Of a stretch of 64,000 nucleotides of DNA, positions 41,997-64,000 are shown one piece after another. The stretch is taken from assembly GCF_022846255.1 (NCBI RefSeq), contig NZ_AP025682.1; one strand, 5' to 3'. Both the position numbers and the translations under genes were made by a program. How positions within the stretch are numbered: position 1 is the stretch's first letter; the number at the start of each line of letters is the position of its first letter. This stretch comes from Escherichia coli (GTDB lineage Bacteria; Pseudomonadota; Gammaproteobacteria; Enterobacterales; Enterobacteriaceae). The notes beneath the pieces were generated by a model. The model ran no database searches and was not told the DNA's origin. It was given only the letters and a program-made list of their open reading frames with translations.

Positions 41997-42797
41997 AAAT
42001 ATTGATACAGGTAAAGGCAACGAACCAGAAATGCTCGAGACTATTCTGGCTAAGTCTGCCGGGCGATAAGCACGAGTGCATATGCTGTTCCAAAAGTCTT
42101 CTATTCAATAAATTACGAAGTGCTAACTAACTGACCATGTACAATAAGAACAAATCGCCTTGAATTGCTCTTGATTGAATGGTGAAGAATTATGAGGGTG
42201 ATAGTCCTTACCACCCTCAATTAAAATTAAAGGTATTTACGTGAGAAATTTTTCTTAACCACACTACTAATAAAACTATTTAGTCCATGCCCATCCTGGG
42301 CTAGCGCTTTCATCTTAGAGACCGTTGAAGCACCCAGTTTTGTAGAATCGTAACGTATTTCCATCCATCTTTAAACTGTACTGTGATAACATCGGGAGTA
42401 ATCTCATAAAACACTATTCCCGAATTACCGCCTTAATTAGCATAAGTTGGCATTTTTAATTCTTATTAAATTATTGCAGCAAGTCGCTGCACTCTAGTCA
42501 TATGACCCCATGCTAAACCTAATTGTTGAGCTAAGTCATAATTTCGATTATTTGATGAACGTAAGTTATTTGACAGGCAGAATTAACCATACACAGTAAT
42601 ATCCGTTTCTGGCACATAGCAGTCCTATAGATAGTGGCATACAGTCATAGATGGTCGATTGGAGGAGGTGCAAATTCTCCCATACAAAAAATACGTAAAA
42701 TCAATAACAGCTGGAAATTATTTAATAATCAAATTATCGGAAGTTCACCAGCCAGCCGCAGTATTCTGCCACGACAAGTTGCTGCGGCTTTTTATGT

Positions 42798-43085
42798 TTA
42801 ACGGATAAACAGCCAGACCAGCAGACACGCCACCGCGGGCACCGCAAAATCCATCAGACTTGCCACATCCCATGCACGAGGATCAAAACCGCCCCACCAC
42901 GGCATGTTAATCCGCTTGCCATGCCCGAACATTTCAATCCAGCGATATTCTGCCTGGGTGTGTTCACGCGCAATGAAGAACGTACAACCGGCTATCGCCC
43001 CGTAAGCCCAGTTTCCGGTAAAAAGACCAATCAGTAGCTGCGCAGCCACAGCACAAAGTGCATGAAGGAAAGGTGTTATATCCAT
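42798..43085 (-). CDS. Small hydrophobic hypothetical protein (prophage tail-fibre-distal region)
   Basis: Start placed at the ATG preceded by AAAGGAGGA (MDITPFLHAL...). Two predicted hydrophobic segments. Function unknown. Confidence 0.5.
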   Translation of the reverse strand: MDITPFLHALCAVAAQLLIGLFTGNWAYGAIAGCTFFIAREHTQAEYRWIEMFGHGKRINMPWWGGFDPRAWDVASLMDFAVPAVACLLVWLFIR

Positions 43086-43098
43086 TACTCCTCCTTTA

Positions 43099-43800
43099 TC
43101 AGATATCACTTCGGGAAGTTGATAACAACTTTAATTCTGACTCAAGTTCATCAACTCTTTCAGTCAGTTTCTGGATATGGTGAATCAGTGGAACAACCAG
43201 ACGTTCGTACATTACACCTTCGACAACAAGGCCATTGCTGGAAATAGCTTCAGGAGCATCATCTTCGTTAGCTGGTCGCCAGTGTACAAACTGAGGAGCA
43301 ATTTCTCCCACTTCCTCGGCAATCAATCCGTAGAATCCCCAGTCACTCCTGTCATTTTCGCATTGCGACCTGTACCACACAGGGCGCATCCTGAAAATGA
43401 GATCGGCGTGCTCTGAATCTATTGTCTCTACTGAATGTTTATAGCGAATAGACGATGTTGACCGCAGTACAGACGAAATTGCAGGGTCAGGATTAAGATA
43501 AAGATTTGCCGCCGCTGTAGTCGTGCCCAATTCCCATAAATAAAACGCTTCACGGCCAGTCAGCGGGTAAAAATCTCCACCATAACGACCGCTTTCCAGA
43601 TCGTTCACTTCCAGTTTGTTTTTCAGCTTATTATCAACTTCAGTTTTTGTGTATCTGGTGCTGATATCCTGCTTTGCACTGGTCATATCAGTCTGAAGCG
43701 TTGATACTTTTCCGTTAATTGAGGAAATATCTTCCTTAGTTTTACTGACATCTCCCTTTAGCGTGGTGATATCTCCTGGAATTACTGTCGATGTAGCCAT
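43099..43800 (-). CDS. Tail-fibre-associated protein with C-terminal intramolecular-chaperone-like domain
   Basis: 233-aa ORF with coiled-coil-like N-terminal half and C-terminal segment (GLIAEEVGEIAPQFV...ERLVVPLIHHIQKL) resembling the Peptidase_S74 / tail-fibre chaperone domain. Downstream of stf. Confidence 0.55.
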   Translation of the reverse strand: MATSTVIPGDITTLKGDVSKTKEDISSINGKVSTLQTDMTSAKQDISTRYTKTEVDNKLKNKLEVNDLESGRYGGDFYPLTGREAFYLWELGTTTAAANLYLNPDPAISSVLRSTSSIRYKHSVETIDSEHADLIFRMRPVWYRSQCENDRSDWGFYGLIAEEVGEIAPQFVHWRPANEDDAPEAISSNGLVVEGVMYERLVVPLIHHIQKLTERVDELESELKLLSTSRSDI

Positions 43801-43809
43801 TTGTCTCCC

Positions 43810-44091
43810 TCACATCCAGCCACGAAGTTGATGCTCAACAACAACCGCATATTTATCGAATATTGACGATTTTTTTGCATCATTAATGATGCGCACGTTT
43901 ACAAAATATCCGTCTTCCTTAACACATACCGGTTCGCCATCTTCAGTCAGTTCTCCGGTTTCTTTGTACACGTTACCTATCACGTCAATAAGAATATTAT
44001 CCTGCATCGACTCGTCATCATAATAGCCAGTGCTCTCCATAAAGGCCGAAAAGTCGGCCCTGTCTGCAAATTTGAGTGTTAAATCTTTCAT
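43810..44091 (-). CDS. Hypothetical 93-aa acidic protein
   Basis: ORF tightly packed between stf and the next gene. No recognisable motif. Confidence 0.45.
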   Translation of the reverse strand: MKDLTLKFADRADFSAFMESTGYYDDESMQDNILIDVIGNVYKETGELTEDGEPVCVKEDGYFVNVRIINDAKKSSIFDKYAVVVEHQLRGWM

Positions 44092-46472: not shown

Positions 46473-46530
46473 TCCACAAAAAAGCCCGCCTGAACCGGCG
46501 GGCTGTCATAACACTGTGTTACCTGGCTAA

Positions 46531-47130
46531 TCAGAACTTATAACCGACACCCACGATGAAACCGTCAGTGCGCCAGTCGCCACTGCCGGAGCCTTCATAA
46601 GCAATATCAATGGCCACGGATTCGGTCGGGTTAAACTGCACGCCAGCTCCCCACGCCAGAGACGTGTTGCTGTGGCGATCGTCATCACTTCCGGTCAGCA
46701 CATCGTGCGTTTTCCCCTTGTTGTCAGTTACGCGGAGATAATCCCCGGAGAACGTCGAAACACGGCTGTAAGCCACACCTGCCATCGCATAAGCACTGAA
46801 CCATTCATTCACGCGTACAGATGGCCCCGCCATCATGCTGAACCAGCGGTTACGCACTGAATCTTCATGCCAGCGGGTATCGCTGTAATGCGTTTTTTGC
46901 TCATCTTTGGCATTGGCATAACTGAATGACGTCACCAGCCCCAGCGTGTCCGTAAACTCATAACGGTATTTCACGTTAATCCCGTTCAGATCATCGCTGC
47001 CTGGCATATCAGTATGGGTCTGAAGATACCCGGCGCTTAGTGTGGACTGATGCTCTGCTGCGCTTGCTGGCGTACCAGCGGCAACCAGCCAGACTACTGC
47101 GGACAGAATAACAGCACATAATTTACGCAT
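46531..47130 (-). CDS. lom: Lom outer-membrane protein (Ail/PagC/OmpX family)
   Basis: 199-aa ORF with signal peptide and beta-barrel character, between J and stf as in lambda. Confidence 0.9.
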   Translation of the reverse strand: MRKLCAVILSAVVWLVAAGTPASAAEHQSTLSAGYLQTHTDMPGSDDLNGINVKYRYEFTDTLGLVTSFSYANAKDEQKTHYSDTRWHEDSVRNRWFSMMAGPSVRVNEWFSAYAMAGVAYSRVSTFSGDYLRVTDNKGKTHDVLTGSDDDRHSNTSLAWGAGVQFNPTESVAIDIAYEGSGSGDWRTDGFIVGVGYKF

Positions 47131-47197
47131 AATTACCTCTCGCTTTTCTGCAATAAAAAAGGCGTCATTTCTGACGCCCGTATTGGGGTTATAAAAT

Positions 47198-50100
47198 TCA
47201 GCTGATACTGATGCCTGCGGTGGCTTTCTTCATCACCACAACCAGCAAATCGCTGATACTTGCTGTGGGATACCAGTCATTTACCAGCCATGCTGACACC
47301 GAAAACTCCAGCGTCATGTGACCGTGACCGGCAGGCATATCAATAACGCCACTGTAAATCAGCGTATTATCCAACGCGGTACGGTTATAAATTTCAGCAC
47401 CGTTTTTCCGCACTATCAGACGGCATGAGGAGTAAATATCAGTATGCTCTCTCTCATGTTTAGCGCCGCTGAATGCCACCGCCGGAATAACAATCTGCCG
47501 GTCAAACGGCTGATCGTCATAAATCCTGACGGTAATGGTCCCTGATGGCCACCGTTCCGGTGCACGGGAGTCCCGGGGGAAAGCTTTGCCCACTGTTTTA
47601 ACGAGATCGCCTTCAATCTGGTTCGCGGACAGTTTTCCCAGAACCCGGCAGTTCTCGTTAATCGTGACGTTGTTGAGCGTCCCGGAGTTCGCATTCACGT
47701 TACCGCTGATATCGGCATTTTTCGCCGTCAGCCGCCCGTCCGGTGTCAGGGAAAATGCCGGAGGATTACCGCCGCTGGTAATGGTGGGAGCCGTCAGATA
47801 TTTCAGGAACACTTCGTTCATGAATATCTGATCGCCCTGACCAACAAACATCGGCTTTGTGTTGCCATTTGCAGGATTAACCATCGCAATCCTGTCCGCC
47901 GCCAGCAGCACCTGACTCTGCATGCCGTCAGGGGTGTTCTCAATACCGGCACCAATACCCGCGATATAAAGGCGTCCGTCCCGCATCTGCTGCAGCTTCA
48001 CAGCCCACATGCTGTTCAGGTTATTATTTGTATCAACCTGAACCTTCTGTATCTGCTGAATTGCCGCACTCTGGTCTTCCAGTTTCTTATTGACGGTCTG
48101 CGTGATTTCATTGCTGACACCCGTAATGGACGTCCTGATTTCAGCCAGGTCAGGCGCAAGCTGACCGTTATCAATCTGCGTCCACAACTCCTGAGCCAGA
48201 TGGGTTTTCCCTATCTCTCCTTTGAAAAAATTCAGATAGCCGGATGCATCATCACTCGGCTGGCCAACAGCCTCCACAAATGCCGATTTGCCAACGGTGT
48301 TCACACTGCGGATGTAAAAATAATAATCATGGCCCGGTTTGATATTGATACTGGCGGCTATCCAGTACAGCGCCGTGCCAAGATAGCGTGCTGTGGTTTC
48401 AACCTGCCTGATATCCGCAATCCGCTTTTCCGAGAACCAGAACTCAAACTGTACCGTCGGATCATAAACCGCAAGATGCGGCGTGGCGGTTATCTGAAAA
48501 TACCCCGGTGTCAGCTCAATCTGCGACGGCGCTGCCGGTGCGGCAATCCGGAACGATACCGATGCCGGATCGCCCTGCTGCCCCCACGCATTTACCGCCC
48601 GGACTGTCAGCCTGTAGTTCCCCAGCGCCAGTTGCCTGAAGCGGTATGTGGTTTCCGTCGTCCGGGCCATGCTGACCAGCCGCTCACTGCCGTCGTCCGC
48701 TGCCACGGTAAGGCGAAGCAGGAAGCTCACGCCCTTCACCACCTTCGGCGTGTCCCATCGCGCCAGCACCTGATATTCCCCGCTGTCTGCGGTGACTTCG
48801 GCGGTCAGGTGCTGCACCGCTGGCGGCGTGACACCATTCACCGTGCCGCTCTGGTCGCCGTCAAAGTGCGCCCCGTTATCCACGATGGCTTCTTTTTCCG
48901 GTACATGCTGCACGGCGGTGATGGCATACGTACCGTCATCGTTCTCCCGGATACTCACACAGCGGAACAGGCGCTGGCGCAGCGTCGGCAGCTTCAGCCC
49001 CCATACGCTGTATTCAGCAACACCGTCAGGAACACGGCTCACTTTCACCTTCACGCCGTCGGTGACGGACTGAACCTCCACGCTGACCGGACTCCCCTGC
49101 CCGTCAACCAGGCTTATCAGCGTGGTGCCGGAGGATGGCAGCGTGATTTCACGGTCGAGCGTCAGCGTCCGGGTCTGGCTGTTTACCGCCAGCACGCGCC
49201 CGCCGGTGCTGATACCGGCATAGTCATCATCACAGATTTCAATGACATCGCCCGGCACATGGCGAAGCCCTTCTGCGCCCACGCTGAAGTCCACGGTCTG
49301 CGTTTCCAGCAGTTCTGTTTTAATCAGCCACAGCCCGGCGCGGTGTGCCTGCCCCCGGCTGGTACAGCCAAAAGCATCCATCTTCGTGACGTTACGACCG
49401 TAACGGGCAATGGCCTGCGTGTCCTCCACAAGCTCTGTCGCCGTCTCCCAGCCGTTGTTCGGGTCAATCCAGTTCACCTCAACGGCATTATGGCGGTCTT
49501 TCAGGGCGCTGAAGCTGTAGCGGAACGGCGCGCCATCATCCGGCATCACCACATTACTGCGGTTATAGGTCCACACCTTATCCGACGGTCGGTCCTGCAC
49601 GAACGTCAGCGTCTGCCCGTTCCATACCGGCATACAGCGCATCGCCGAGCAGAAATCACTGAGCACATCCCACGCCTTGCGCTGTGTGGTCAGGTACGCA
49701 TTACAGGTGATGCGCGGCTCCGTGCCGCCAAAACCGTCCGGCACTGACTGGTCGCAATACTGGCCGATGACATACAGCGCCCATTTATCCACATCTGCCG
49801 CACCAAGACGTTTCCCCATGCCGTAGCGCGGGTGGGTCAGCATATCCCACAGACACCAGGCCATGTTGTTGCTGTATGCTGGCTTAAACGTTCCGTCCCA
49901 GATACCGCTGTATTGCCGCGTCTGCGGGTTATAGTTCGACGGCACCTGCAGAATACGCCCGCGCAGATGATAATTACGGCTCACCTGCTGGCTGCCGAAC
50001 TGCTCCGAATCCACCTGCACGCCGACCAGTGCCGTGTTCGGGTAGCACTGTTTCACATCGATGATTTCGGTGTATGACGACCAGAGCGTTTTGTTCTGCA

Positions 50101-50677
50101 GCTGGTCTGTGGTGCTGTCCGGCGTCATCCTGCGCATCCGGATATTAAACGGGCGCGGCGGCAGGTTATCCACCACCACCGAGGCCAGATACTGCGAGGT
50201 GGTTTTGCCCTTAATGGTGATGTCTTTTTCCGTCACCCAGCCACCGTTACGTTGTATCTGAACCAGCAGGCGGACTTCCGATGGATTCCTGTCCCCCTTT
50301 GAGGTGGTTTCCACCAGTGCCTGCACACCGAAGGTAAAGCGCAGACGGTCGATGTTTGCCGACGTGATGGTGCGGGTGATCGGCGTGTCGTATTTCACTT
50401 CCGTACCCAGCACCGTCTCGGAACCGGAGGATTCAAATCCCTCCGGCGGTGTCTGCTCCTGCTCACCTGCCCGGAACACCACCGTGACACCGGAGATGTT
50501 GGTATTCCCCTCACTGTCCAGCACCGGCGTACTGTTCAGCAGCACGCTTTTTAATCCATCCACCGGACCTTCAACCGGCCCTTCACTGATGGCATCAATC
50601 ACACTCAGCAACTGCGTGGATTTCAGGTTGTCCTTCGCTTCGCGCGGGGTATGCCCCTTACTGCTGCCTTTACCCAT
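47198..50677 (-). CDS. J: Tail tip / host-specificity protein J
   Basis: 1159-aa ORF. The N-terminal about 800 aa match lambda J closely. The C-terminal receptor-binding part diverges. Confidence 0.95.
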
Positions 50678-50737
50678 TCGTCATGCTCCATAAACGACAA
50701 AACCGCCCGGAGGCGGTTTCACATAAAACATTTTGCA

Positions 50738-51409
50738 TCAGCGACCAATCACCACAACCTGACCACCGTCCCCTTCGTCTGCCGTGCTGATCTCCTGAGA
50801 AACCACGCGTGACCCCACGCGCATTTCCCCGTACAGAACAGGCAGAACATTGCCCTGGGCAACCATGTTATCCAGTGACGAGAAATACGTGTTCTGTTTG
50901 CCGTTATCTGTACTGGCTGCCGTGGGCGTCCTGGCTTTCGGTGCCAGCATCTGCGCCACACCACCAAGTACCATACTGGCACCGAGAGAAAACAGGATAC
51001 CGGTCATACCACCGGCCCCAATGGCTGCCCCCCATGCTGCAAGGGTGGCTCCGGCAGTAAAGAATGATCCGGCAATGGCGGCAGCCCCCAGAACAATCTG
51101 GAATACGCCCCCTGACTTGGCCCCGGCGACTCTGGGAACAATATGAATCACAGCGCCGTCAGGCAGAACCTCATGTAACTGCGCCGTCAATCCGGACGTG
51201 CTGACGTCCCGCCCGGAAATCCGTACCTGATACCAGCCGTCGCTCAGTTTCTGACGAAACGCCGGGAGCTGTGTGGCCAGCGCCCGAATGGCTTCAGCCC
51301 CCGTTTTCACACGAAGGTCGATGCGGCGGCCAAATCGTTGTAAATCCCCGTAAAGGCAGATGCGCGCCATGCCCGGTGACGCCAGAGGGAGTGTGTGCGT
51401 CGCTGCCAT
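50738..51409 (-). CDS. I: Tail assembly protein I
   Basis: 223-aa ORF overlapping the 3' end of K, as in lambda. Confidence 0.9.
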   Translation of the reverse strand: MAATHTLPLASPGMARICLYGDLQRFGRRIDLRVKTGAEAIRALATQLPAFRQKLSDGWYQVRISGRDVSTSGLTAQLHEVLPDGAVIHIVPRVAGAKSGGVFQIVLGAAAIAGSFFTAGATLAAWGAAIGAGGMTGILFSLGASMVLGGVAQMLAPKARTPTAASTDNGKQNTYFSSLDNMVAQGNVLPVLYGEMRVGSRVVSQEISTADEGDGGQVVVIGR

Positions 51410-52050
51410 TTGTCGGTATACCTCTCTCGTTTGCTCAGTTGTTCAGGAATATGGTGCAGCAGCTCGCCGTCGCCGCAGTAAATAGCGGCATGATTCGGCA
51501 CCGATGAACCAAAACAGCACAGCAGCACATCGCCCGGCTGCGCCGCTGACAACGGCACCTGATACAGCCCCGTTGCCTCCAGATTATCCAGATAGAGATT
51601 CTGACCGTGACGCCACCAGTCATCCTCACGATGAAAATCCGGCATCTCAATCCCCGCCAGATGATAAGCATCCCGGAACAGCGTGTAACAGTCCGTCACC
51701 CCGTGCTCAAAGCGCCGCCCGGTGAGATGCGGCACACAGCGGAACTTATGAATCGCCCCCCGGCAGACCAGCAACCACGGCAAATCACTCTGCACCTGCA
51801 GCCGCCGGTCGGCCTCACTCAGCCAGGGCAGACCACCGGGGTGGCTGTGGACCAGCGCCACAATCTCACCCTGCATTTCTGCCTGCAGCCAGTCTTCCGG
51901 CGACATACGGAAATACGCCTCCGGCTCACCGGAGATATTCACGCAGGGGAAATATCTTTCCCCCTCCGGCGTGCTTACCACGAAGCCGCACGACTCCGCT
52001 GGCGCACATCGCCGGGCGTGCGCCAGAATCGCTGATTCTGCCTGTGTCAT
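51307..52050 (-). CDS. K: Tail assembly protein K (MPN/JAMM + NlpC/P60 domains)
   Basis: ORF with HSHP JAMM-like motif and C-terminal NlpC/P60-like region. The exact start may lie downstream of the ORF-track start. Confidence 0.85.
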   Translation of the reverse strand: MTQAESAILAHARRCAPAESCGFVVSTPEGERYFPCVNISGEPEAYFRMSPEDWLQAEMQGEIVALVHSHPGGLPWLSEADRRLQVQSDLPWLLVCRGAIHKFRCVPHLTGRRFEHGVTDCYTLFRDAYHLAGIEMPDFHREDDWWRHGQNLYLDNLEATGLYQVPLSAAQPGDVLLCCFGSSVPNHAAIYCGDGELLHHIPEQLSKRERYTDKWQRRTHSLWRHRAWRASAFTGIYNDLAAASTFV

Positions 52051-52055
52051 GGGAT

Positions 52056-52754
52056 TTACTGCGAAAGTTTGTTAATGGAAAGGAAGCCGCCAAAGTTGCC
52101 GACGTTATTGCGGAACTTACAACCGCTCAGGCATTTGCTGCATTTATCCTTCGTGATATCGGACGTTGGCTGGTCATATTCATCCGCGACCGCCGGACCG
52201 TGATAACCGCACTCATCGCCGCGATAGGTCCAGGTGCAGGTGTTGGCCAGCATGATGCGCCCCGGAAAAACGGCACCATCCGTTTCCGTCGGTGTGGACA
52301 GTACAAAGGAGGCACTGACCGCACTCAGTTCGCTGCACTGCTCGATGCGCCAGCGGCTGATCACCTCCTGCTCCGGATCGGCGTCGCTGTTTCCGTTGAC
52401 GAAGTTCACCGCATCCAGAAAACGGGCGTAAACCTTACGCCTGACCACCGTTCCGCCGACCAGACTCTGCAGATCTTCCACCATCCCGGTGACCATACCG
52501 TACAGGTTAGAAACCGTCAGCGTGGGGCGCGTACTGGTGCCTTTGCCATTCAGTTCAAAACTACTCCCCTGAATGGGATACGGCTGATACTGTCGCCCCT
52601 GCCAGGTGACCGGCTCACCTTTTTCGTTCTGCTCATTACAGAAAAAATAACGTTCTCCACCGACCTCTGTCAGATCGATTTCCCAGAGCACCACGCTGGC
52701 CGACTGCTCCGCACGGGTGCATTCATTCAATGTTTCCTGCCGGATATCCTGCAT
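52056..52754 (-). CDS. L: Tail tip assembly protein L
   Basis: 232-aa ORF (MQDIRQETLNECTRAEQSASVVLWEIDL...) matching lambda L. Confidence 0.93.
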   Translation of the reverse strand: MQDIRQETLNECTRAEQSASVVLWEIDLTEVGGERYFFCNEQNEKGEPVTWQGRQYQPYPIQGSSFELNGKGTSTRPTLTVSNLYGMVTGMVEDLQSLVGGTVVRRKVYARFLDAVNFVNGNSDADPEQEVISRWRIEQCSELSAVSASFVLSTPTETDGAVFPGRIMLANTCTWTYRGDECGYHGPAVADEYDQPTSDITKDKCSKCLSGCKFRNNVGNFGGFLSINKLSQ

Positions 52755-53083
52755 CAGTTCACCACCTGTTCAAACTCTGCGCTGAACTCAACACGCAGCA
52801 TACTGACCCGCGACGACCATTTTGCGCAGGTCACCTTTATCTGCCGCCACTCATAAGGCGGCGTCCACAGAAAGGATTTCCAGCCCCCGTGCTCAGCCAG
52901 AAACGACTCCAGCGCCGTGGGCTCCCAACGGGGGACAGAAAGCGTCACGCTGTACGTTTTCAGGTTGGCATTCAGCCCGGCAGGCGCTCGCTGGGAATAG
53001 CCATCACCAAAGCGCACCTTTCTTACAGAAGGGGCCGAAGCCACATCCATACCGGGTTTCACTTTCCAGCGGAAGGTTTTCAT
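52754..53083 (-). CDS. M: Minor tail protein M
   Basis: 109-aa ORF between H and L. Confidence 0.93.
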   Translation of the reverse strand: MKTFRWKVKPGMDVASAPSVRKVRFGDGYSQRAPAGLNANLKTYSVTLSVPRWEPTALESFLAEHGGWKSFLWTPPYEWRQIKVTCAKWSSRVSMLRVEFSAEFEQVVN

Positions 53084-55641
53084 CGTCCACCTCCGGAGAA
53101 CAGGCCACCATCACGCATCTGTGTCTGAATTTCATCACGGGCACCCTTGCGGGCCATGTCATACACTGCCTTCATCATCTGTGGACCTGGCAGACCATTC
53201 GTACCGTCGTTCTGAATCACCACGTGATTGTTCTGATTAAAATTAATGCCTTCAGCCCGCCGCATCTGCGCCGGACTTCCGGCACCGCCCACATAACCAC
53301 CTTCCGCATAGCCCCGCATTAGGCGGTACAGGTTGCCGACACCAATCCGGCTGGTTGCCTCCTTCGTGAAGACAAACTCACCACGGTGAACAATCCCCGC
53401 TGGCTCATATTTGCCGCCGGTTCCCGTAAATCCTCCGGTTGCAAAATGGAATTTCGCCGCAGCGGCCTGAATGGCTGTACCGCCTGACGCGGATGCGCCG
53501 CCACCAACAGCCCCGCCAATGGCGCTGCCGATACTCCCGACAATCCCCACCATTGCCTGCTTAAGCAGAATTTCTGTCATCATGGACAGCACGGAACGGG
53601 TGAAGCTTCGCCAGTTCTGCTCACTGCCGGTCAGCATCGCCGCCATATTATGCGCAATACCATCAAAGGTCTGCGTGGCAGCACTTTTAACCTGCGACAT
53701 ACTGTCCGTGGCACTCTCTTTCCACTCGCTCCAGCCGGACCTGAGGCCTGCCATCCAGTTCCCGCGAAGCAGGTCTTCAGCCGCCCAGGTCTTTTTCTGC
53801 TCTGACATGACGTTATTCAGCGCCAGAGGATTATCGCCATACTGTTCCTTCAGGCGCTGTTCCGTGGCGTCCCGCGCTGCCTGCCGGTCAGTCAGCCCCC
53901 GGTTTTTCGCCTCAATGGCTGCCCGTTTTGCCCGTTGTTGCTGTGCGAATTTATCCGCCTGCTGCGCCAGCGCGTTCAGGCGCTCCTGATACGTAACCTT
54001 GTCGCCAAGTGCAGCCAGCTGGCGTTTGTACTCCAGCGTCTCATCTTTATGCGCCAGCAGGGATTTCTCCTGTACAGACAGCTGGCGACGTTGCGCCGCC
54101 TCCTCCAGTACCGCGAACTGACTCTCCGCCTTCCACAAATCCCGGCGCTGCTGGCTGATTTTCTCATTTGCTCCGGCATGCTTCTCCAGCGTCCGGAGTT
54201 CAGCCTGAAGCGTCAGCAGGGCAGCATGAGCACTGTCTTCCTGACGATCGCCCGCAGACACCTTCACGCCGGACTGTTTCGGCTTTTTCAGCGTCGCTTC
54301 ATAGTCCTTTTTCGCCGCCGCCATCAGCGTGTTGTAATCTGCCTGCAGAATTTTCCCGTCCTTCAGTGCCTTGTTCAGTTCTTCCTGACGGGCGGTATAT
54401 TTCTCCAGCGGCGTCTGCAGCCGTTCGTAAGCCTTCTGCGCCTCTTCGGTATATTTCAGCCGTGACGCTTCAGTATCGCTCTGCTGCTGCGCATTTTTGT
54501 CCTGTTGACTCTGCTGCTCAGCCTTCTTTCTCGCGGCTTCAAGCGCAAGACGGGCCTTTTCACGATCATCCCAGTAACGCGCCCGCGCTTCATCGTTAAC
54601 AAAATAATCATCCTTGCGCAGACTCCAGATGTCGTCCGCTTTCTTAAACGCAGCCTCTGCCTTAATCAGCATCTCCTGCGCGGTATCAGGACGACCAATA
54701 TCCAGCACCGCATCCCACATGGATTTGAATGCCCGCGCTGTCCTGTCTGCCCAGGTCTCCAGCGTACCCATGTTCTCTTTCAGGCGGCGGGTCTGGTCAT
54801 CAAACCCTTTCGTCGCGGCCTCGTTCGCCGCCTGCAATGCCCCGGCTTCATCGCCGGAACGCTGCAACTGAGCAACATACGCAATCTGCTCCGTCGTCAC
54901 GTTATGGAACTGGCGTGCCATCGCTGTCAGCCCTGACGTCGGGTCTGTGGTCAGCTTCCCGAAGGCTTCAGCGACCTTGTCCACCTCCACGCCGGATGCA
55001 GAGGAGAAACGCGCCACACTCTGGCTGATGGATGCAATCTGAGCCTCACCGCTTACTCCCGCCTTAACCAGTGCGCTGAGTGACTCGCTGGTCTGGTTAA
55101 ACGTCAGCCCTGCCGCCTGCCCGGCTCTGGACAGGACCAGCATGCGATCTGCCGTCAGACCCGACTGATTGCCGGAAAGGACCAGCGTTTTGTTGAAATC
55201 GGACAGGGTTGAGTTGCCCTGATACCAGGCATACGCCAGCGCACCGGTCGCCACCGCCAGCGAGGTGGCCCCGACCATCGGCAGGGTGATCGCACCGGCA
55301 AGCCCCCTGAACATGGGGATCATCCCGCCGAAGGAGTCCTTCACCTGCCCCCCCTGTTGCAGCAGGATCAGCCACGGACTTTGCCCGCCTGCAAGCTGCG
55401 TGGCCACGTCGGTGAACTGCGCAGGCAGCATACGCATGGCAGCTTTATACTGCCCGACGGAAATCCCCGCTTTCTGTGCAGCCAGTGCCTGTCGGCTCAG
55501 CGACTGTTCAACGACTGCCGCTGTTTTTTTCGCATCACTTTCCGTACCGGAAAAATGACGCCTGACTCTGGCCATCTGCTCGTCAAATCTGGCCGCATCC
55601 AGACTCAAATCAACGACCAGATCGCCTACCGGTTCAGCCAT
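53080..55641 (-). CDS. H: Tail tape measure protein H
   Basis: 853-aa ORF, the same length as lambda H. Coiled-coil-rich with a Gly-rich C-terminal region. Confidence 0.93.
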   Translation of the reverse strand: MAEPVGDLVVDLSLDAARFDEQMARVRRHFSGTESDAKKTAAVVEQSLSRQALAAQKAGISVGQYKAAMRMLPAQFTDVATQLAGGQSPWLILLQQGGQVKDSFGGMIPMFRGLAGAITLPMVGATSLAVATGALAYAWYQGNSTLSDFNKTLVLSGNQSGLTADRMLVLSRAGQAAGLTFNQTSESLSALVKAGVSGEAQIASISQSVARFSSASGVEVDKVAEAFGKLTTDPTSGLTAMARQFHNVTTEQIAYVAQLQRSGDEAGALQAANEAATKGFDDQTRRLKENMGTLETWADRTARAFKSMWDAVLDIGRPDTAQEMLIKAEAAFKKADDIWSLRKDDYFVNDEARARYWDDREKARLALEAARKKAEQQSQQDKNAQQQSDTEASRLKYTEEAQKAYERLQTPLEKYTARQEELNKALKDGKILQADYNTLMAAAKKDYEATLKKPKQSGVKVSAGDRQEDSAHAALLTLQAELRTLEKHAGANEKISQQRRDLWKAESQFAVLEEAAQRRQLSVQEKSLLAHKDETLEYKRQLAALGDKVTYQERLNALAQQADKFAQQQRAKRAAIEAKNRGLTDRQAARDATEQRLKEQYGDNPLALNNVMSEQKKTWAAEDLLRGNWMAGLRSGWSEWKESATDSMSQVKSAATQTFDGIAHNMAAMLTGSEQNWRSFTRSVLSMMTEILLKQAMVGIVGSIGSAIGGAVGGGASASGGTAIQAAAAKFHFATGGFTGTGGKYEPAGIVHRGEFVFTKEATSRIGVGNLYRLMRGYAEGGYVGGAGSPAQMRRAEGINFNQNNHVVIQNDGTNGLPGPQMMKAVYDMARKGARDEIQTQMRDGGLFSGGGR

Positions 55642-56068
55642 ACCGGACTCCTCCTGCGATCCCTTCTGATACTGTCATCAGCATTACGTCATCCTCCGTC
55701 ATGTCCGCCACATCCGGGGAAGCGGGGATAACTTCATTCCCGTCCGGGCCAAAGCGGACACCTCCGGCAAGCCCTGCCGCTTTCTGCATCAGCACATCAT
55801 CTTCAGGCTCTTCGTCAGCCTCGCGCCGGTTCAGCAGACTGAAATCCAGCGGATGCATATCCGGATCGCTGAAAAACAGGCTGAGTACGGTGTACGTCAG
55901 CCCGGAAAAGTGCATATCCAGCAGAACATCATGAAAATAATGGGTACTGTAAAAGCGGTGCCAGTCGGCATACTCCGTGGATGACATCCCGGCAAGCATG
56001 GCACGCCAGTCGGGTCGCCCCATCTCGCGCGCCAGTTTCAGGGCAAAACTCAGCTCACCGTCGAACAC
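55634..56068 (-). CDS. T: T segment of the G-T tail assembly chaperone (made by -1 frameshift from G)
   Basis: ORF in the -1 frame relative to G, beginning at the slippery site and overlapping the start of H. Confidence 0.8.
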   Translation of the reverse strand: MFDGELSFALKLAREMGRPDWRAMLAGMSSTEYADWHRFYSTHYFHDVLLDMHFSGLTYTVLSLFFSDPDMHPLDFSLLNRREADEEPEDDVLMQKAAGLAGGVRFGPDGNEVIPASPDVADMTEDDVMLMTVSEGIAGGVRYG

Positions 56069-56472
56069 TTTCCCGCAGAAACAGGCTCTGCAGGCCCGGC
56101 GTCCTCTGCCTGTTCAGGAGCATCATTCACCACAAACTCATACATACCGGACAGCCGGTACACCACGTTTTCAGCATGAGAAATTGCCTCTGTGGGCCAG
56201 GTGGTAAGCACTTCCCGCTCAATCTGTTTAACGGCTTCATTCATGGAAGGCAGCTTTGTCTTCTTCGGATGGTTATGCCACAGGGACATCGCCACCAGAA
56301 ACGCGCCGGTTCTGATGGCGTCTTCCACAGTAAACTTCCGGTTGCTGTCTGACTCCGCCTGTTCTGCCTGCCGTTTCATCAGGGCGAGATGCTCAATACG
56401 CTGCAGGGCTGACAGTTCAGAAAGCGTGACGGTCACACCGTTATGTTCAAATGATTCGGTTTTCAGGAACAT
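56050..56472 (-). CDS. G: Tail assembly chaperone G
   Basis: 140-aa ORF (MFLKTESFEHNGVTVTLSELSALQRIEHLALMKRQ...) matching lambda G. Confidence 0.9.
   Translation of the reverse strand: MFLKTESFEHNGVTVTLSELSALQRIEHLALMKRQAEQAESDSNRKFTVEDAIRTGAFLVAMSLWHNHPKKTKLPSMNEAVKQIEREVLTTWPTEAISHAENVVYRLSGMYEFVVNDAPEQAEDAGPAEPVSAGKCSTVS
56068..56074 (-). other. Programmed -1 ribosomal frameshift slippery heptamer G GGA AAG (G to G-T)
   Basis: GGGAAAG on the minus strand (plus-strand CTTTCCC) sits in the G frame seven codons before the G stop. A -1 shift here enters the T frame. Confidence 0.7.
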
Positions 56473-56487
56473 CGCTGACTCTCCGGA

Positions 56488-57228
56488 TTAACTGGCGGTG
56501 ACGTTGATTTCTGCAACCGCAGCAAGTTCACCATTACCGGATACGACCGGAATGTTGACCTTGCCTGCAGCAACACCTTTCACGGTGATGGTCATACCAC
56601 TGACCGACACGGTGGCTTTTGTTTTATCCGCAGACACCGCACGGAAGCTCTTGTCGGTTGCGCCCTCCGGCTGGAATGCCACGGTCAGCGTGGTGCTCTG
56701 CCCTTTCACTACGGAAGCACTGGCGGGTGTCACCGTCATGCCGGTTGTCGCCGTCACCGTGCTGCGATCTTCTGCCATCGACGGACGTCCCACATTGGTG
56801 ACCTTCACCGTGCGGGTAATCACTTCCTTCGCCGTCACCGCCTTACCGATACTGCTGACCCAGCCACGGAACACATCGACCGTGCCGTTCGGGAAGCGGA
56901 TTTTATAGGCACGGATATCACCTTCATTAAACCACGCCAGCAGCGCCTGCTGCCCCTGCTCTCCGGGCATCCACGCCAGCGTGAAGCTGGTATCTCCGGC
57001 AGATTTCTGCCCCTGCCCGGTCGCAGTCCAGTCTGCATCTTCATCATCGAGATAGCTGTCGTCATAGGACTCAGCGGTCAGTTCGCCGGGCGTCAGGTCT
57101 TTAACTTTTGCCAGACGCGACCAGTCAACGTCTGAAAGCGGGTTCGCATAAGGGTCACCGCTCCCCTTATAAACCCACAGGGTGGTCCCGGCACCTTTCA
57201 CCGGCATTGTAGGATTTGGTACAGGCAT
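56488..57228 (-). CDS. V: Major tail tube protein V
   Basis: Start placed at [23 protein letters not shown]-terminal Ig-like domain. Confidence 0.93.
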
Positions 57229-57235
57229 AGCGTCC

Positions 57236-57631
57236 TCACATTTCATAGGTAATGACATAAGTCAGATCGGCTGAACTCCACAGGCCCGCATCATCGTCGC
57301 GCCGGTAGTCATAGCCGCTGGCCACCATACTGGTGATCAAATCTGACAGTGCCGGGATATCGCTCATCACCGGGTAAATCCGGGACTCCATCCACGAATC
57401 CAGCTCTGAATCCGGCACCTGAGCAGGCAGGAAAACTTCGATATGCAGCTCCGCCTGCCAGGTATCGCTGTCCAGCTCTTCGCCCGTGTATTCAGCGCCG
57501 GTGAGATAAACGGCAACTGCCGGAAAATCCGCCTCATCAAAAACAGCGGGGCGACCATCAAAAAACGTCGCCCCGGTGTCATGCTTCTCCAGTGCATCCA
57601 GTACGGCTGCACGGAGTTCAGTATGTTTCAT
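57236..57631 (-). CDS. U: Tail terminator protein U
   Basis: 131-aa ORF ([26 protein letters not shown]...) matching lambda U. Confidence 0.93.
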
Positions 57632-58206
57632 CGCTTTATTACCATCCTCAGTTGATGCTGCAGCGCATAGCCCAGCTCTTTCGGAAGACGTTCACGCCGT
57701 ATCCGCTCAATATTTTGTTTAAACGCCGTGGTCAGCGGCACCGCCATCGGGATTTTCACTACATCAATGGGGTAACGGTTTTTCCCGGCCACACGCTGCA
57801 TGACATGCCACCGGCCATTTTTCAGTTGCTGAATAAACGCGCCGGGAATACGACGGTTACCCACCACAAGCACGCTGCCGCCACCTTTCAGGGATGAACG
57901 CTGCCCCTTTTTACGACGCCTGCGTCGGGACAGGACAATCCGCGCGTTACCCAGCTTTATTACGGGCAAATCCCCCCGGTTAACCCTGATTCTGGCCTGC
58001 GGATTTTTGACCGTGGCCCTTTTCAGCCTGGCCCTTTCCTTTACCAGTTTCCGGCGTACCTTTGTCTCACGGGCAACCTGTGACGCCGACTGCGATATCG
58101 CGGATGAAGCAACGCGGTTAATGGCCATTGCGGCGGCACCGGGCACCGCCGTTCTGCTGATACGGCTGAGGTTTTCAACGGCCTGCTCAAGACCTTTTAT
58201 GGCCAT
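57628..58206 (-). CDS. Z: Tail completion protein Z
   Basis: 192-aa ORF between FII and U. Confidence 0.9.
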   Translation of the reverse strand: MAIKGLEQAVENLSRISRTAVPGAAAMAINRVASSAISQSASQVARETKVRRKLVKERARLKRATVKNPQARIRVNRGDLPVIKLGNARIVLSRRRRRKKGQRSSLKGGGSVLVVGNRRIPGAFIQQLKNGRWHVMQRVAGKNRYPIDVVKIPMAVPLTTAFKQNIERIRRERLPKELGYALQHQLRMVIKR

Positions 58207-58217
58207 ACATCCCCCTT

Positions 58218-58571
58218 TCAGCGGCGACGGTTAACGGCAGGCGGTACGCCCCGCCCAAGCCAGAGATGACAGCTTCCGCCATCATCCGGCGAAATCCGGT
58301 CTATCCAGAAGTTTTCCTCACCGATGGTCAGCGTGTCGCCGCGCCGCAGCTGCCGCACATCATCAGTCCGGACAAACAGGGACGGGCTGGAGCCTTCAAC
58401 GCGCACGCCCTGTCCGGCATAGCTGATATTTTCAGGGTCATCAAAAACACCACGTATCACAGCACCGGACTGCTCACCGGATGTCATGGTGGCTGACGTT
58501 CCCATGTACCCGCGTATCGTTTCATCGGCGCGGGCAATGGCAGCATCGAACAGGTTATCGAAATCAGCCAC
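58218..58571 (-). CDS. FII: Head-tail joining protein FII
   Basis: 117-aa ORF (MADFDNLFDAAIARADETIRGYMG...). Confidence 0.9.
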   Translation of the reverse strand: MADFDNLFDAAIARADETIRGYMGTSATMTSGEQSGAVIRGVFDDPENISYAGQGVRVEGSSPSLFVRTDDVRQLRRGDTLTIGEENFWIDRISPDDGGSCHLWLGRGVPPAVNRRR

Positions 58572-58582
58572 AGCGCCTCCCG

Positions 58583-58978
58583 TTATTGCATTCTGGCCAG
58601 GCCGCGCTCTGTCATTTCGGCTGCCACACCGGCAGAGACACGAAACGCCGTTCCCGGCAGCACAAATGCCACAGGTTCATCCCGCGTGGCGTGAAGTGCA
58701 TCAGTATGCAGCGTCACCAGTGCCACAACCGTGACCAGATCAGCCGTATCAGTCACGGTATCCGGCTGCGCTGATACCACCTCATTTTCATGTCCGGTCA
58801 GCGCATTTTCCGGGCTGACAGATGTGTCCTGACCGGCAGCGTCATCCGTGTCATCAAGCTCCTCTTCCAGCTCTGCCACACGGAGCACCAGTTCTTCTTT
58901 CGTCCCCGTCAGGCTGACATCACGGTTCAGTTGTTCACCCAGCGAGCGGAGACGGGCAATCAGTTCATCTTTCGTCAT
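58583..58978 (-). CDS. FI: DNA-packaging protein FI
   Basis: Start placed at MTKDELIARLRSLGEQL, preceded by a GGAGGAG Shine-Dalgarno. The ORF-track call extends upstream in frame. Confidence 0.88.
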   Translation of the reverse strand: MTKDELIARLRSLGEQLNRDVSLTGTKEELVLRVAELEEELDDTDDAAGQDTSVSPENALTGHENEVVSAQPDTVTDTADLVTVVALVTLHTDALHATRDEPVAFVLPGTAFRVSAGVAAEMTERGLARMQ

Positions 58979-59018
58979 GGACTCCTCCACAGAGAGAAAT
59001 GGCCCCGAAGGGCCATGA

Positions 59019-60044
59019 TTACGCCAGTTGTACGGACACGAACTCATCAGGATCAGCCAGCAGCATTAGCGGTGCTGACTGAATCATGGTGAACTCACGC
59101 GCCGGATCGCCGGATGTCTTCCAGTTTTTCGGATAACGAGGAGACGCATTAATACCCTCACTCAATGCATCCGCATCCTGAATACAGCCATAGGTGCGCA
59201 GACCGCGAGCCTGAGTGTTCCCCAGCACCATCGTGTTGTCCGGCAGGAAGTTCTTTTTGACGCCGTTTTCCACGTACTGTCCGGAATACACGACGATGGC
59301 CACATCGCCATACATTCCCTTATAGGACACCGCTTTGCCCAGGTCTTTTACCGCTGTCTCCAGCTCGGAATGAGAGCCGCGACGGGTATCCAGCTTCTCC
59401 CTGACGGCTTTGAAGGAACGGAACAGCGCCCAGCCTTTCGGATCGAACACGATGATATTCACCACACCGCTGGCGTTCAGCGCGTAGGCTTCGATATCGT
59501 CGGTCGGGTCATACGTGGACTTGTCACGCTTGCTCCACTCCGTGCCGCCGGACTGCGTGATGTTATTCGCCGCACTGCGGCCCATATCCACCTCAACCGG
59601 ATCGAAGGCTTCACCGGTCATGGTGTATTTGCCCTTAAGCACGGCAGAAACTGCCTGCATCTCTTCGACCTGGGCAATGGCCAGCTCTTCGTCACGCATG
59701 TTCTGCATGATGATGCGACGGCGACGGTAAGCCGGATCCGCCAGATTCTGCGGATCTTCATCCGGCAGGCGACGCAGGGTCATCTGCGGATTCACTTCAT
59801 GCTTCGGCTTGACATATCCCGGCGTAAATTCAGAGGTGGAGCCGCCACGGGAGCGGATAACCTCACCGGAAACAATCGGCGAAACGTACAGCGCCATGTT
59901 TACCAGTCCCGGAATTTGTGAGAGATAGACTTTCTCCGTGGTGAAGGGATAGCTCTCACGGAAAAAGAGGCGCAGAAACAGCGGATCAAACTTAAATTTC
60001 TGCTCATTTGCCGCCAGCAGCTGGGCGGTTGTGTACATCGACAT
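59019..60044 (-). CDS. E: Major capsid protein E
   Basis: Start placed at MSMYTTAQLLAANEQKFKFDPLFLR (lambda E-like, about 341 aa). Coordinate derived from the ORF-track frame. Confidence 0.95.
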   Translation of the reverse strand: MSMYTTAQLLAANEQKFKFDPLFLRLFFRESYPFTTEKVYLSQIPGLVNMALYVSPIVSGEVIRSRGGSTSEFTPGYVKPKHEVNPQMTLRRLPDEDPQNLADPAYRRRRIIMQNMRDEELAIAQVEEMQAVSAVLKGKYTMTGEAFDPVEVDMGRSAANNITQSGGTEWSKRDKSTYDPTDDIEAYALNASGVVNIIVFDPKGWALFRSFKAVREKLDTRRGSHSELETAVKDLGKAVSYKGMYGDVAIVVYSGQYVENGVKKNFLPDNTMVLGNTQARGLRTYGCIQDADALSEGINASPRYPKNWKTSGDPAREFTMIQSAPLMLLADPDEFVSVQLA

Positions 60045-60099
60045 AAAAAAATCCCGTAAAAAAAGCCGCACAGGCGGCCTTTAGTGATGAAGGGTAAGG

Positions 60100-60432
60100 T
60101 TAAACGATGCTGATTGCCGTTCCGGCAAACGCGGTCCGTTTTTTCGTCTCATCGCTGGCAGCCTCCGGCCAGAGCACATCCTCATAACGGAACGTGCCGG
60201 ACTTGTAGAACGTCAGCGTGGTGCTGGTCTGGTCAGCATCAACCGCCAGAATGCCAACGGCAGCACCGTCGGTGGTGCCATCCCACGCAACCAGCTTACG
60301 GGTGGAGGTGTCCAGCATCAGCGGGGTCATTGCAGGCGCTTTCGCACTCAATCCGCCGGGCGCGGTTGCGGTATGAGCCGGGTCACTGTTGCCCAGCGGC
60401 TGGTAATGGGTAAAGGTTTCTTTGCTCGTCAT
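60100..60432 (-). CDS. D: Capsid decoration protein D
   Basis: Start placed at [12 protein letters not shown] (about 110 aa). Confidence 0.93.
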
Positions 60433-60441
60433 AAACATCCC

Positions 60442-61741
60442 TTACACTGGTGTGTTCAGCAAATCGTTAACGGCATCAGATGCCGGGTTACCTGCAGCCA
60501 GCGGTGCCGGTGCCCCCTGCATCAGACGATCCAGCGCAGTGTCACTGCGCGCCTGTGCACTCTGTGGTGCTGCGGCCAGAATGCGGCGGGCCGTTTCCAC
60601 GGTCATTCCGGGGGTTTCTGCCAGCACGCGTGCCTGTTCTTCGCGTCCGTGAGCCTCCTCACAGTTGAGGATCCCCATAATGCGGCTGTTTTCTGCCGCA
60701 ACCGCTGCGGTGATCTGCGCGTTCACGTCCGGCTGCGCCGCGCTGGCGTTCTCGCCCTCCGTCGCTGGCACCACGCCAGTAACGTCAGCCTGCGAAGCAG
60801 TGGCTGAAACAGTTGTTGATTGAGTCTCTTTGGTCATTCGCCCTCCTGAGAGACGGGATTTACGTGCATCCAGTGCATCACGCATGACGGTGATCGCATC
60901 GGTACTGTTAACAAGTTCATCAGCCAGTCCGGCATCAATGGCCTCCTGACCGCTGTACACTGCAGCCTCGGTATCCAGCACAGCCTGCACGGACAGGCCG
61001 GTATATGCCGACACCTTCTGTGCAAACATCCGGCGGGTTGCATCCATCCGGGACTGCAGTGTTTCCCGGACATCATCCGGTAGATGGCTGTAGGGGTTGC
61101 CATCCACCTTATGGCTGCCGCTGTAAATCAGCGTGATTTCCACGCCCTGTTTCTCCAGCGCAGCACCGTAATTACTGTGAGCCATCATGACGCCGATGGA
61201 GCCTGTCCGGGCGGTCTGCGTGACCAGACGTCGGGAGGCGGCGCTGGCAAGCAACTGACCTGCACTGCAGTTCATGTCGTTGGCCAGCGCCCATACCGGC
61301 TTTATGTCACGCACACGGGCGATGATGTCAGCGCAGTCAAATGCCCCTGCCACCATCCCGCCTGGCGTATCCATATCGAGCAGAATGCCGTCCACCATCG
61401 GGTCGCTGGCAGCCTGTTGCAGACGGGCGATAATGCCGTTGTAACCGGTCATCCCCGAATACGGCTGCAGCGCTCGCGTCCGACTGACCAGCGTGCCGGA
61501 CACCGGCAGCACGGCGATGCCGTTCATGACCTGATAACTGCGGGCCTGTCGTGGTCCGTCATCATCAACGGATAACGCCAGCGCCGCGGGTGCCTCTCCG
61601 GCAGTCAGGCTGTCGCCGGATACCGCATCCGTCATGCGGCTGATCCCAAGCTGGCCTGCAAGCGCACAAAAGAAAACCCGCGCATAGGCGGGTTCAAGCA
61701 TCAGCGGCTCATTAAAGGCCATACTGGCAATATGCGGGAGA

Positions 61742-61761
<20 letters not shown>
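60442..61761 (-). CDS. C: Capsid assembly protease C, with nested in-frame scaffold Nu3
   Basis: Start placed at a GTG preceded by GGAGGAG (VTAELRNLPHIASMAFNEPLML), overlapping the 3' end of B. ClpP/SppA-like protease region. The Nu3 scaffold is expected from an internal in-frame start, not mapped here. Confidence 0.88.

Positions 61762-64000
<2,239 letters not shown>

What the first reader, a model, noticed from the sequence alone, without database searches (positions are those of the whole stretch)
56050..56080. Conserved G-T programmed -1 frameshift signal
The slippery heptamer G GGA AAG lies in frame near the end of G, with the T ORF in the -1 frame continuing to the H start, as in lambda. 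It indicates a functional tail assembly module.
Basis: partly seen in the sequence, partly recalled or inferred. Interest (0 to 1): 0.3.

Follow-up and report, generated by a model that had tools for sequence, protein, structure and literature searches.

The report
Lambda-type G/GT tail chaperone frameshift site
This is the well-known programmed -1 ribosomal frameshift site of phage lambda's tail-assembly chaperone genes G and T, sitting intact in a lambda-like prophage of E. coli; it is real but ordinary and already explained.

Summary
GGGAAAG lies at 56074..56068(-) and is read G GGA AAG (Gly134-Lys135) in the zero frame of a 140-aa G gene (56472..56050). The -1 frame is open from 56113 to a TGA at 55636..55634, overlapping the tape-measure (H) ATG at 55641 by 8 nt, exactly as in lambda. 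The 901-nt region is 98.3% identical to lambda 9683-10583; T is 100% and G 95.7% identical in protein, and no substitution touches the heptamer. G and T hit Pfam Phage_TAC_2 and Phage_tail_T. The bare heptamer is not rare (11 in the window, 8 expected). However, it is the only in-frame X_XXA_AAG among 5122 late-gene codons, and the chance of one in the 64-nt overlap is about 0.5%. In 74 of 75 complete related loci T is in -1, with a slippery heptamer ending 18 nt before the end of the G stop codon. Diverged relatives use AAAAAAG or GGAAAAG at the same spot. All lambda morphogenesis genes from W to I are full length, and J is present but diverged. A predicted hairpin 7 nt downstream is retained in relatives but cannot be told apart from coding constraint. 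Verdict: already known, low interest.

The parts
56050..56472 (-). Gene G, tail assembly chaperone, 140 aa. ATG at 56472, TGA stop at 56052..56050. Shine-Dalgarno-like GGAGAG at 56484..56479.
   Evidence: ORF; Pfam PF06894 Phage_TAC_2 E=1.1e-58; 95.7% aa identity to lambda G over 140/140 residues.
56068..56074 (-). Slippery heptamer G GGA AAG (Gly134-Lys135 of G); site of the tandem -1 slip to GGG AAA.
   Evidence: Phase computed; identical to the lambda heptamer at 10109-10115; conserved at the same position in 72 of 75 complete IMG/VR loci, AAAAAAG in 2; annotated as slippery in the N15 and LLS records.
55634..56068 (-). T segment, 144 codons in the -1 frame, translated only as the C-terminal part of gpGT. 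The fusion CDS is join(56472..56068, 56068..55634) = 279 aa.
   Evidence: The -1 frame is open from 56113 to the stop at 55636..55634; Pfam PF06223 Phage_tail_T E=2.1e-14; PHROG 32165, a 290-position profile, matches both G (profile 1-142) and T (profile 140-285); 100% aa identity to lambda T.
56050..56113 (-). 64-nt zone where the G zero frame and the -1 frame are both open; the heptamer lies inside it and ends 18 nt before the end of the G stop.
53080..55641 (-). Gene H, tape measure protein, 853 aa. Its ATG at 55641 overlaps the T stop by 8 nt; strong Shine-Dalgarno AGGAGGAG lies inside the 3' end of T.
   Evidence: Pfam TMP_2 and Tape_meas_lam_C; 95.9% identity to lambda H; sequence read.
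56488..57228 (-). Gene V, major tail tube protein, 246 aa from the lambda-equivalent start; immediately upstream of G.
   Evidence: Pfam Phage_TTP_12 and Big_2; 97.2% identity to lambda V.
55990..56060 (-). Tentative RNA hairpin starting 7 nt after the heptamer. Outer helix 56060-56053 with 55997-55990; inner helix 56034-56019 with 56014-55999. Not established as functional.
   Evidence: MFE -40.3 kcal/mol, z=-2.1; consensus fold in 10 relatives; 95.9-98.9% of cells paired but only one real compensatory pair; no drop in synonymous diversity; z=-1.8 against synonymous recoding.

Best explanation
This is the lambda-type G/GT programmed -1 ribosomal frameshift site in the tail-assembly chaperone genes of a lambda-like prophage integrated beside torT in an E. 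coli chromosome. Most ribosomes translate G (140 aa) and stop at the TGA 18 nt past the heptamer. A small fraction (about 4% in lambda) slip back one base. This happens while tRNA-Gly sits on GGA in the P site and tRNA-Lys (anticodon mnm5s2UUU) sits on AAG in the A site. Both tRNAs re-pair with GGG AAA, and translation continues in the -1 frame through T to give the 279-aa fusion gpGT. gpG and the G part of gpGT coat the tape measure protein H. The T part recruits the tail tube protein V. Both chaperones then leave, and neither is in the finished virion. The slip rate sets the roughly 30:1 G:GT ratio needed for correct tail assembly. Shown here: sequence, phase, open frame, gene order V-G-T-H, homology and conservation. 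Inferred from lambda experiments: that slippage actually occurs, its rate, and the protein interactions.
For: Heptamer phase and open -1 frame. Region 98.3% identical to lambda 9683-10583 and 99.0% to phage 434. Same gene coordinates and 8-nt T/H overlap as lambda. Of 15 nucleotide differences from lambda none is in the heptamer; the nearest are synonymous changes 18 nt upstream and 41 nt downstream. T is 100% and G 95.7% identical to lambda in protein. Pfam Phage_TAC_2 and Phage_tail_T, flanked by the tail tube and tape measure genes. A PHROG built on the fusion covers both G and T. In relatives down to about 72% DNA identity T is always -1, and a heptamer ending in AAAG ends 18 nt before the end of the G stop in all but Kp4865-4: GGGAAAG, AAAAAAG or GGAAAAG. 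74 of 75 complete IMG/VR loci keep the arrangement. It is the only in-frame X_XXA_AAG in 5122 late-gene codons; chance about 0.5%. Literature: lambda slippery sequence GGGAAAG, zero frame kept about 96% of the time, tRNA-Lys U34 thiolation modulates the rate (PMC3296357; PMC7618472); 30:1 ratio, gpG binds gpH, T domain binds gpV, neither is in virions (PMC5009743).
Against: Nothing in the sequence argues against it. Caveats: no expression or protein data exist for this particular prophage. The prophage half beyond position 64000 (lysis, regulation, integrase) was not seen, so it could be defective. The bare heptamer is not statistically enriched in the window, so the case rests on context and homology.
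Confidence: 0.96

Rival explanations
1. T is an independent gene translated from its own start (the GTG at 56068, as in the historical lambda annotation 'T, 144 aa'), and the heptamer is incidental.
For: The mechanical ORF list reports a 144-aa GTG-initiated ORF at 55634..56068. The lambda records J02459 and NC_001416 still annotate T as a separate CDS.
Against: No Shine-Dalgarno motif lies at a usable distance from that GTG. The only purine-rich stretch is the heptamer itself, 2 nt upstream, whereas G and H have clear GGAGAG and AGGAGGAG 6 nt upstream. In relatives the homologous codon is GTC, GCA or GCC, not a start codon (alignment A1), yet the T frame stays open and conserved. The literature describes T as made only as the frameshift fusion (PMC5009743). 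Newer records annotate a joined CDS or slippery site.
Confidence: 0.02
2. The site is an inert relic: the prophage is defective and the G/T genes, though lambda-like, are no longer expressed or selected.
For: Lambda-like G/T regions are very common in E. coli (3703 of 5426 complete genomes, median 2 copies) and many such prophages are cryptic. One IMG/VR relative (L013) has an indel that truncates G upstream of the heptamer. The window does not include the regulatory half of the prophage.
Against: All lambda morphogenesis genes in the window (W, B, C, D, E, FI, FII, Z, U, V, G, T, H, M, L, K, I, J) are full length without frame disruption. Substitutions in T relative to lambda are 0 non-synonymous and 2 synonymous, which indicates continuing purifying selection or very recent acquisition.
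Confidence: 0.05
3. The fusion arises by transcriptional slippage of RNA polymerase rather than by ribosomal slippage.
For: Some phage and secretion-system fusions use transcriptional slippage on A or T runs (PMC5009743). The Stx1/VT1-Sakai variant has a run of six A.
Against: This site has only three consecutive A and three G, far shorter than the long homopolymer runs associated with polymerase slippage (my own knowledge of that literature). Frameshifting in lambda responds to tRNA-Lys anticodon modification, which is a ribosomal signature (PMC3296357).
Confidence: 0.01

Closest known systems
Bacteriophage lambda G / G-T programmed -1 frameshift (Levin, Hendrix & Casjens 1993; Xu, Hendrix & Duda 2004, 2013, 2014)
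   Same: Identical heptamer, phase, distance to the G stop (18 nt), lengths (G 140, T 144, H 853 aa), V-G-T-H order and 8-nt T/H overlap. 98.3% DNA identity; T protein identical.
   Different: Six amino-acid substitutions in G (Q70K, Q73K, M74L, Q86R, N117D, T122A) and 9 synonymous changes across G and T. The host prophage sits beside torT rather than at attB-lambda and carries a different J C-terminus, lom, tail fibres and cargo.
Phage 434 and other lambdoid phages or prophages (HK630, mEp332, phiSTEC1575-Stx2k, E. coli prophages)
   Same: 99.0% identity to phage 434 and 99.9% to prophages in several E. coli genomes over the 901-nt region, with the same annotation as tail assembly chaperone G / protein T.
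   Different: No exact (100%) match was found among complete E. coli genomes or phage records for this 901-nt stretch.
N15 / phi80-like (mEp213, LLS) and Stx1-phage G/T frameshift sites
   Same: Homologous G and T proteins and the same -1 arrangement. The heptamer is at the same distance from the G stop, except in Kp4865-4, whose G stops only 6 nt after it. The T N-terminal motif LARE[MF]GR[PA]DWRAMLAGM is near-invariant.
   Different: They use G GAA AAG (non-canonical P-site re-pairing) or A AAA AAG instead of G GGA AAG, and their T domains are shorter, 113-117 aa.

Membership tests
Lambda-type G/GT tail assembly chaperone -1 PRF | Two overlapping ORFs located between the major tail (tube) gene and the tape measure gene | tested here: met
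   Order V (56488-57228) - G - T - H (53080-55641), all on the minus strand.
Lambda-type G/GT tail assembly chaperone -1 PRF | Downstream ORF is in the -1 frame relative to the upstream ORF and is open from the overlap to its stop | tested here: met
   Frame offset 2 (= -1) has no stop from 56113 to 55636; same in 10 of 10 fetched relatives and 74 of 75 complete IMG/VR loci.
Lambda-type G/GT tail assembly chaperone -1 PRF | [quoted passage not shown] | tested here: met
   G GGA AAG at 56074..56068, codons 134-135 of 140; chance about 0.5% for X_XXA_AAG.
Lambda-type G/GT tail assembly chaperone -1 PRF | Sequence homology of the two parts to gpG (PF06894) and gpT (PF06223) | tested here: met
   E=1.1e-58 and 2.1e-14, both above the curated cut-offs; 95.7% and 100% identity to lambda G and T.
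Lambda-type G/GT tail assembly chaperone -1 PRF | Downstream ORF lacks its own translation initiation signal | tested here: inconclusive
   By reading the sequence, no Shine-Dalgarno lies at a workable distance from GTG 56068, and the homologous codon is not a start codon in relatives. No quantitative initiation model was run.
Lambda-type G/GT tail assembly chaperone -1 PRF | A fusion protein is actually produced at a low fixed rate (about 3-4%) and is required for tail assembly | not testable with these tools
   Shown experimentally for lambda (PMC3296357, PMC5009743). The window is identical to lambda from 17 nt upstream to 40 nt downstream of the heptamer.
Structured-RNA-stimulated -1 PRF (dnaX / IS3 type: heptamer plus 3' hairpin or 5' Shine-Dalgarno) | Conserved downstream stem-loop 5-9 nt after the heptamer, supported by covariation or reduced synonymous variation | tested here: inconclusive
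   A hairpin is predicted 7 nt downstream (z=-2.1) and kept in relatives (96-99% of cells paired). Only one compensatory pair exists. Synonymous diversity is 0.158 against 0.164 elsewhere in T. z=-1.8 against synonymous recoding. No Rfam family matches.
Structured-RNA-stimulated -1 PRF (dnaX / IS3 type: heptamer plus 3' hairpin or 5' Shine-Dalgarno) | Shine-Dalgarno-like stimulator 6-17 nt upstream of the heptamer | tested here: not met
   The upstream sequence GCAGAGCCTGTTTCTGC contains no GGAGG/AGGA-type motif, and the upstream region is not conserved among relatives.

The most novel reading that the evidence does not exclude
The retained hairpin that begins 7 nt after the heptamer (55990-56060) could be a real 3' stimulator or tuner of the G/GT slip rate, shared by lambda, Stx-phage, N15 and phi80-like lineages. 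Part of the extreme conservation of the T N-terminal motif would then be RNA-driven rather than purely protein-driven. The evidence neither excludes nor supports this beyond weak statistics. I could not retrieve the primary lambda paper to see what deletion analysis already showed.
Probability: 0.12. Interest if true: 0.3.

Novelty: already known. Interest (0 to 1): 0.06.

Why it matters
Its value is for annotation. G and T should be annotated as G plus a joined GT product made by ribosomal slippage, not as two separate genes, and the intact site is one sign that the prophage tail module is not decayed. It adds nothing new to biology. The mechanism, its rate, its dependence on tRNA-Lys modification and its role in setting the G:GT ratio have been worked out in lambda, whose sequence is identical here around the site.

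Tried and rejected
(1) Enrichment of the bare heptamer in the window: not significant (11 against 8.0 +/- 2.9), so it cannot serve as evidence on its own.

(2) Downstream RNA stimulator. I tested single-sequence folding, a consensus fold, pair counts with shuffled and slid controls, a 60-sequence pairing check, a synonymous-recoding control and synonymous-site diversity. The result is inconclusive and largely explained by the invariant T N-terminal peptide. The short 48-nt fold is no better than shuffles (z=+0.59).

(3) Upstream Shine-Dalgarno stimulator: none seen.

(4) Rfam: no family at the site.

(5) PDB by sequence: no solved structure for G. The only hits for T are spurious short matches to a glycine-rich stretch in WD40-type designed proteins.

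(6) Retrieving Xu et al. 2013 (PMC3762263) failed because it is not held, and Levin et al. 1993 is not in the library. The question of whether lambda deletion analysis implicated downstream sequence therefore stays open here.

(7) Lambda att core next to the attP-arm similarity at 35329-35709: not present within 3 mismatches.

(8) The other minus-strand GGGAAAG at 51956-51962, upstream of K, is not in X XXY YYZ phase with the ORF there (my arithmetic).

Full report
**Observation**

The genes in this part of the window are on the minus strand. A 140-aa ORF runs 56472..56050(-). Its last codons are GCG GGA AAG TGT TCG ACG GTG AGC TGA, so GGGAAAG at 56074..56068 is phased G GGA AAG (Gly134-Lys135) in the zero frame. 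The -1 frame has no stop from 56113 to the TGA at 55636..55634. The next gene, an 853-aa ORF, starts with ATG at 55641, so the -1 ORF overlaps it by 8 nt. A conceptual slip (reading through AAG, then re-reading its G) gives a 279-aa protein, 135 + 144 residues.

**Is it more than chance?**

The heptamer alone is not. It occurs 11 times in the window on both strands, against 7.99 +/- 2.86 in shuffles. Context changes that:
- In simulated 64-nt overlap zones of late-region composition, an in-frame X_XXA_AAG appears in 0.48% of trials and G_GGA_AAG in 0.22%.
- Among 5122 codon positions of the 16 late genes tested, this is the only in-frame X_XXA_AAG.

**What it is**

The 901 nt around the site are 98.3% identical to phage lambda 9683-10583 and 99.0% identical to phage 434.
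- Lambda's G (9711-10133), T (10115-10549) and H (10542-) have the same lengths and overlaps as here.
- Of 15 nucleotide differences from lambda, none touches the heptamer. The nearest are synonymous changes 18 nt upstream and 41 nt downstream.
- G carries six amino-acid changes and T carries none.
- Pfam assigns G to Phage_TAC_2 (E=1e-58) and T to Phage_tail_T (2e-14). The flanking genes are the lambda tail tube protein V and the tape measure protein H.
- One PHROG profile of 290 positions covers G with its first half and T with its second, so it was built on fusion proteins.

**Wider context**

Window 48181-64000 is collinear with lambda 18002-2179 in reverse orientation, at 96.8% identity.
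- Every lambda morphogenesis protein from W to I is present at full length with 89-100% identity.
- A is cut by the window end, and J is present at 83% identity with gaps.
- Upstream of the prophage end lie torT, torR, torCAD, cbpAM and further E. coli chromosome.

The window is therefore an E. coli chromosome carrying a lambda-like prophage beside torT. Homologous G/T regions occur in 3703 of 5426 complete E. coli genomes, with a median of two copies in each genome that has any.

**Conservation**

I fetched ten relatives down to about 72% DNA identity: lambda, HK630, PhiR12_1, an Stx2a phage, an Stx1a phage, VT1-Sakai, N15, Klebsiella phage Kp4865-4, mEp213 and LLS.
- In all of them T is in the -1 frame.
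- A heptamer ending in AAAG ends exactly 18 nt before the end of the G stop codon in all but Kp4865-4, whose G stops only 6 nt after it.
- The heptamer itself differs by lineage: GGGAAAG, AAAAAAG, or the non-canonical GGAAAAG.
- The N15 and LLS records annotate that position as the slippery site.
- The codon homologous to the supposed GTG start of T is GTC, GCA or GCC in relatives, so it is not a start codon there.

In an IMG/VR sample, 74 of 75 complete loci keep the arrangement: 72 with GGGAAAG and 2 with AAAAAAG. The exception, L013, has an indel about 40 nt upstream that truncates G. It looks like a decayed or mis-assembled copy.

**Mechanism**

Shown here: the signal, its phase, the open frame, the gene order, the homology and the conservation.

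Taken from lambda experiments:
- The zero frame is kept about 96% of the time.
- The slip occurs on GGGAAAG, which encodes Gly-Lys in both frames.
- tRNA-Lys (UUU) reads both AAG and AAA.
- Loss of its U34 thiolation raises slippage and lowers phage yield (PMC3296357; PMC7618472).
- The G:GT ratio of about 30:1 is critical for tail assembly.
- gpG and the G part of gpGT bind the tape measure protein, and the T part binds the tail tube protein.
- Neither chaperone is in the virion (PMC5009743).

The sequence is identical to lambda from 17 nt upstream to 40 nt downstream of the heptamer. I therefore infer the same behaviour here with high confidence.

**Stimulatory elements**

No Shine-Dalgarno-like motif lies upstream of the heptamer, and the upstream sequence is not conserved among relatives.

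Downstream, the 93 nt after the heptamer fold to -40.3 kcal/mol (z=-2.1 against dinucleotide shuffles), with a helix starting 7 nt after the heptamer. A 48-nt piece folds no better than shuffles.

In favour of a conserved structure:
- RNAalifold recovers the same two-helix structure in the ten relatives.
- 96-99% of cells are paired, against 22-44% in slid registers.
- Against synonymous recodings that keep the peptide, the native sequence is only modestly more stable (z=-1.8; 3.7% of recodings fold as well).

Against it:
- 14 of 22 pairs never vary, and only one pair shows a convincing compensatory change (16:84, GC to AU).
- The covariation term is only -0.35 kcal/mol.
- The region encodes the near-invariant T motif LARE[MF]GR[PA]DWRAMLAGM.
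- Pairwise synonymous diversity in the hairpin zone (0.158) is the same as in the rest of T (0.164).
- No Rfam family matches the site.

I regard the hairpin as unproven and largely a by-product of coding constraint. It is the only aspect with any residual novelty.

**Comparison and verdict**

This is a member of the lambda G/GT frameshift family by every defining feature that can be tested in silico. It differs from the type example only by a few substitutions in G. It is already known, and routinely annotated in newer phage records. Interest is low. Its practical value is correct annotation of a joined GT product, and as one indicator that the tail module is intact.

Noticed in passing
window 40218-41993 (+), within the low-GC stretch 40001-42000: A 592-aa ORF in a 33% GC island matches the PADLOC 'dCTPase' model (E=5e-127) and the Pfam cytidine/deoxycytidylate deaminase domain. 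It is probably a nucleotide-depleting anti-phage defence gene carried as prophage cargo between the tail-fibre genes and the attachment end.
   Followed up: partly
window 35501-42846: About 7.3 kb absent from the best-matching E. coli genome (NZ_OZ282436). It encodes an MFS transporter (35767-36960 -), an alpha/beta hydrolase (37138-38289 -), a LysR regulator (38445-39332 +) and the deaminase ORF above. It sits in the position of lambda's b region.
   Followed up: partly
window 35329-35709: 91.9% identical to the lambda attP P-arm (27327-27708), right next to torT (34212-35240 -), but the lambda core GCTTTTTTATACTAA is not present within 3 mismatches. A lambda-like arm seems to be combined with a different integration site beside torT.
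   Followed up: partly
window 43099-48181: The host-range end of the tail module is swapped relative to lambda. The J C-terminal part diverges (83% overall, with gaps, and collinearity with lambda ends at 48181). Lom is 45% identical and the side tail fibre 58%. The fibre genes carry a Peptidase_S74 chaperone domain and a prophage tail fibre N-terminal domain.
   Followed up: no
loci L004-L011 (slip sites listed): Three different heptamers occupy the homologous position in G/T relatives: G GGA AAG, A AAA AAG and the non-canonical G GAA AAG. All end in AAAG. All but Kp4865-4 end 18 nt before the end of the G stop, so position and the A-site Lys codon are more conserved than the P-site codon.
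   Followed up: partly
L013 (IMGVR_UViG_2695420576_000005), about 1560-1610: This relative keeps GGGAAAG and an intact T frame but has an indel about 40 nt upstream that puts a premature stop in G. It is either a decaying prophage or an assembly error.
   Followed up: partly
window 56109-56265 (G) against 55634-56068 (T): Relative to lambda, G has 6 amino-acid substitutions clustered at codons 70-86 and 117-122, while T has none (2 synonymous changes only). Constraint is uneven, or there is a mosaic junction inside the chaperone pair.
   Followed up: no
window 58586-58978 (-): FI (DNA packaging chaperone) is the most diverged head gene, at 89.4% identity with one gap, against 96-100% for its neighbours.
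   Followed up: no
window 64-155, 5754-5841, 7213-7406, 29013-29091: Rfam and ARAGORN hits in the host flank: ES056 sRNA, tRNA-Ser(GGA), Ysr251 antisense RNA, and naRNA4 (a REP-derived RNA). The naRNA4 hit lies in window 28963-29076, between cbpM and torD, where NZ_OZ282436 carries an IS1397 insertion that the window lacks.
   Followed up: no
window 51307-52050 (-): The ORF containing K is open for 247 aa from an ATG just after L, whereas lambda K is annotated as 199 aa (start equivalent to 51906). K may have a longer N-terminus than the classical annotation.
   Followed up: no
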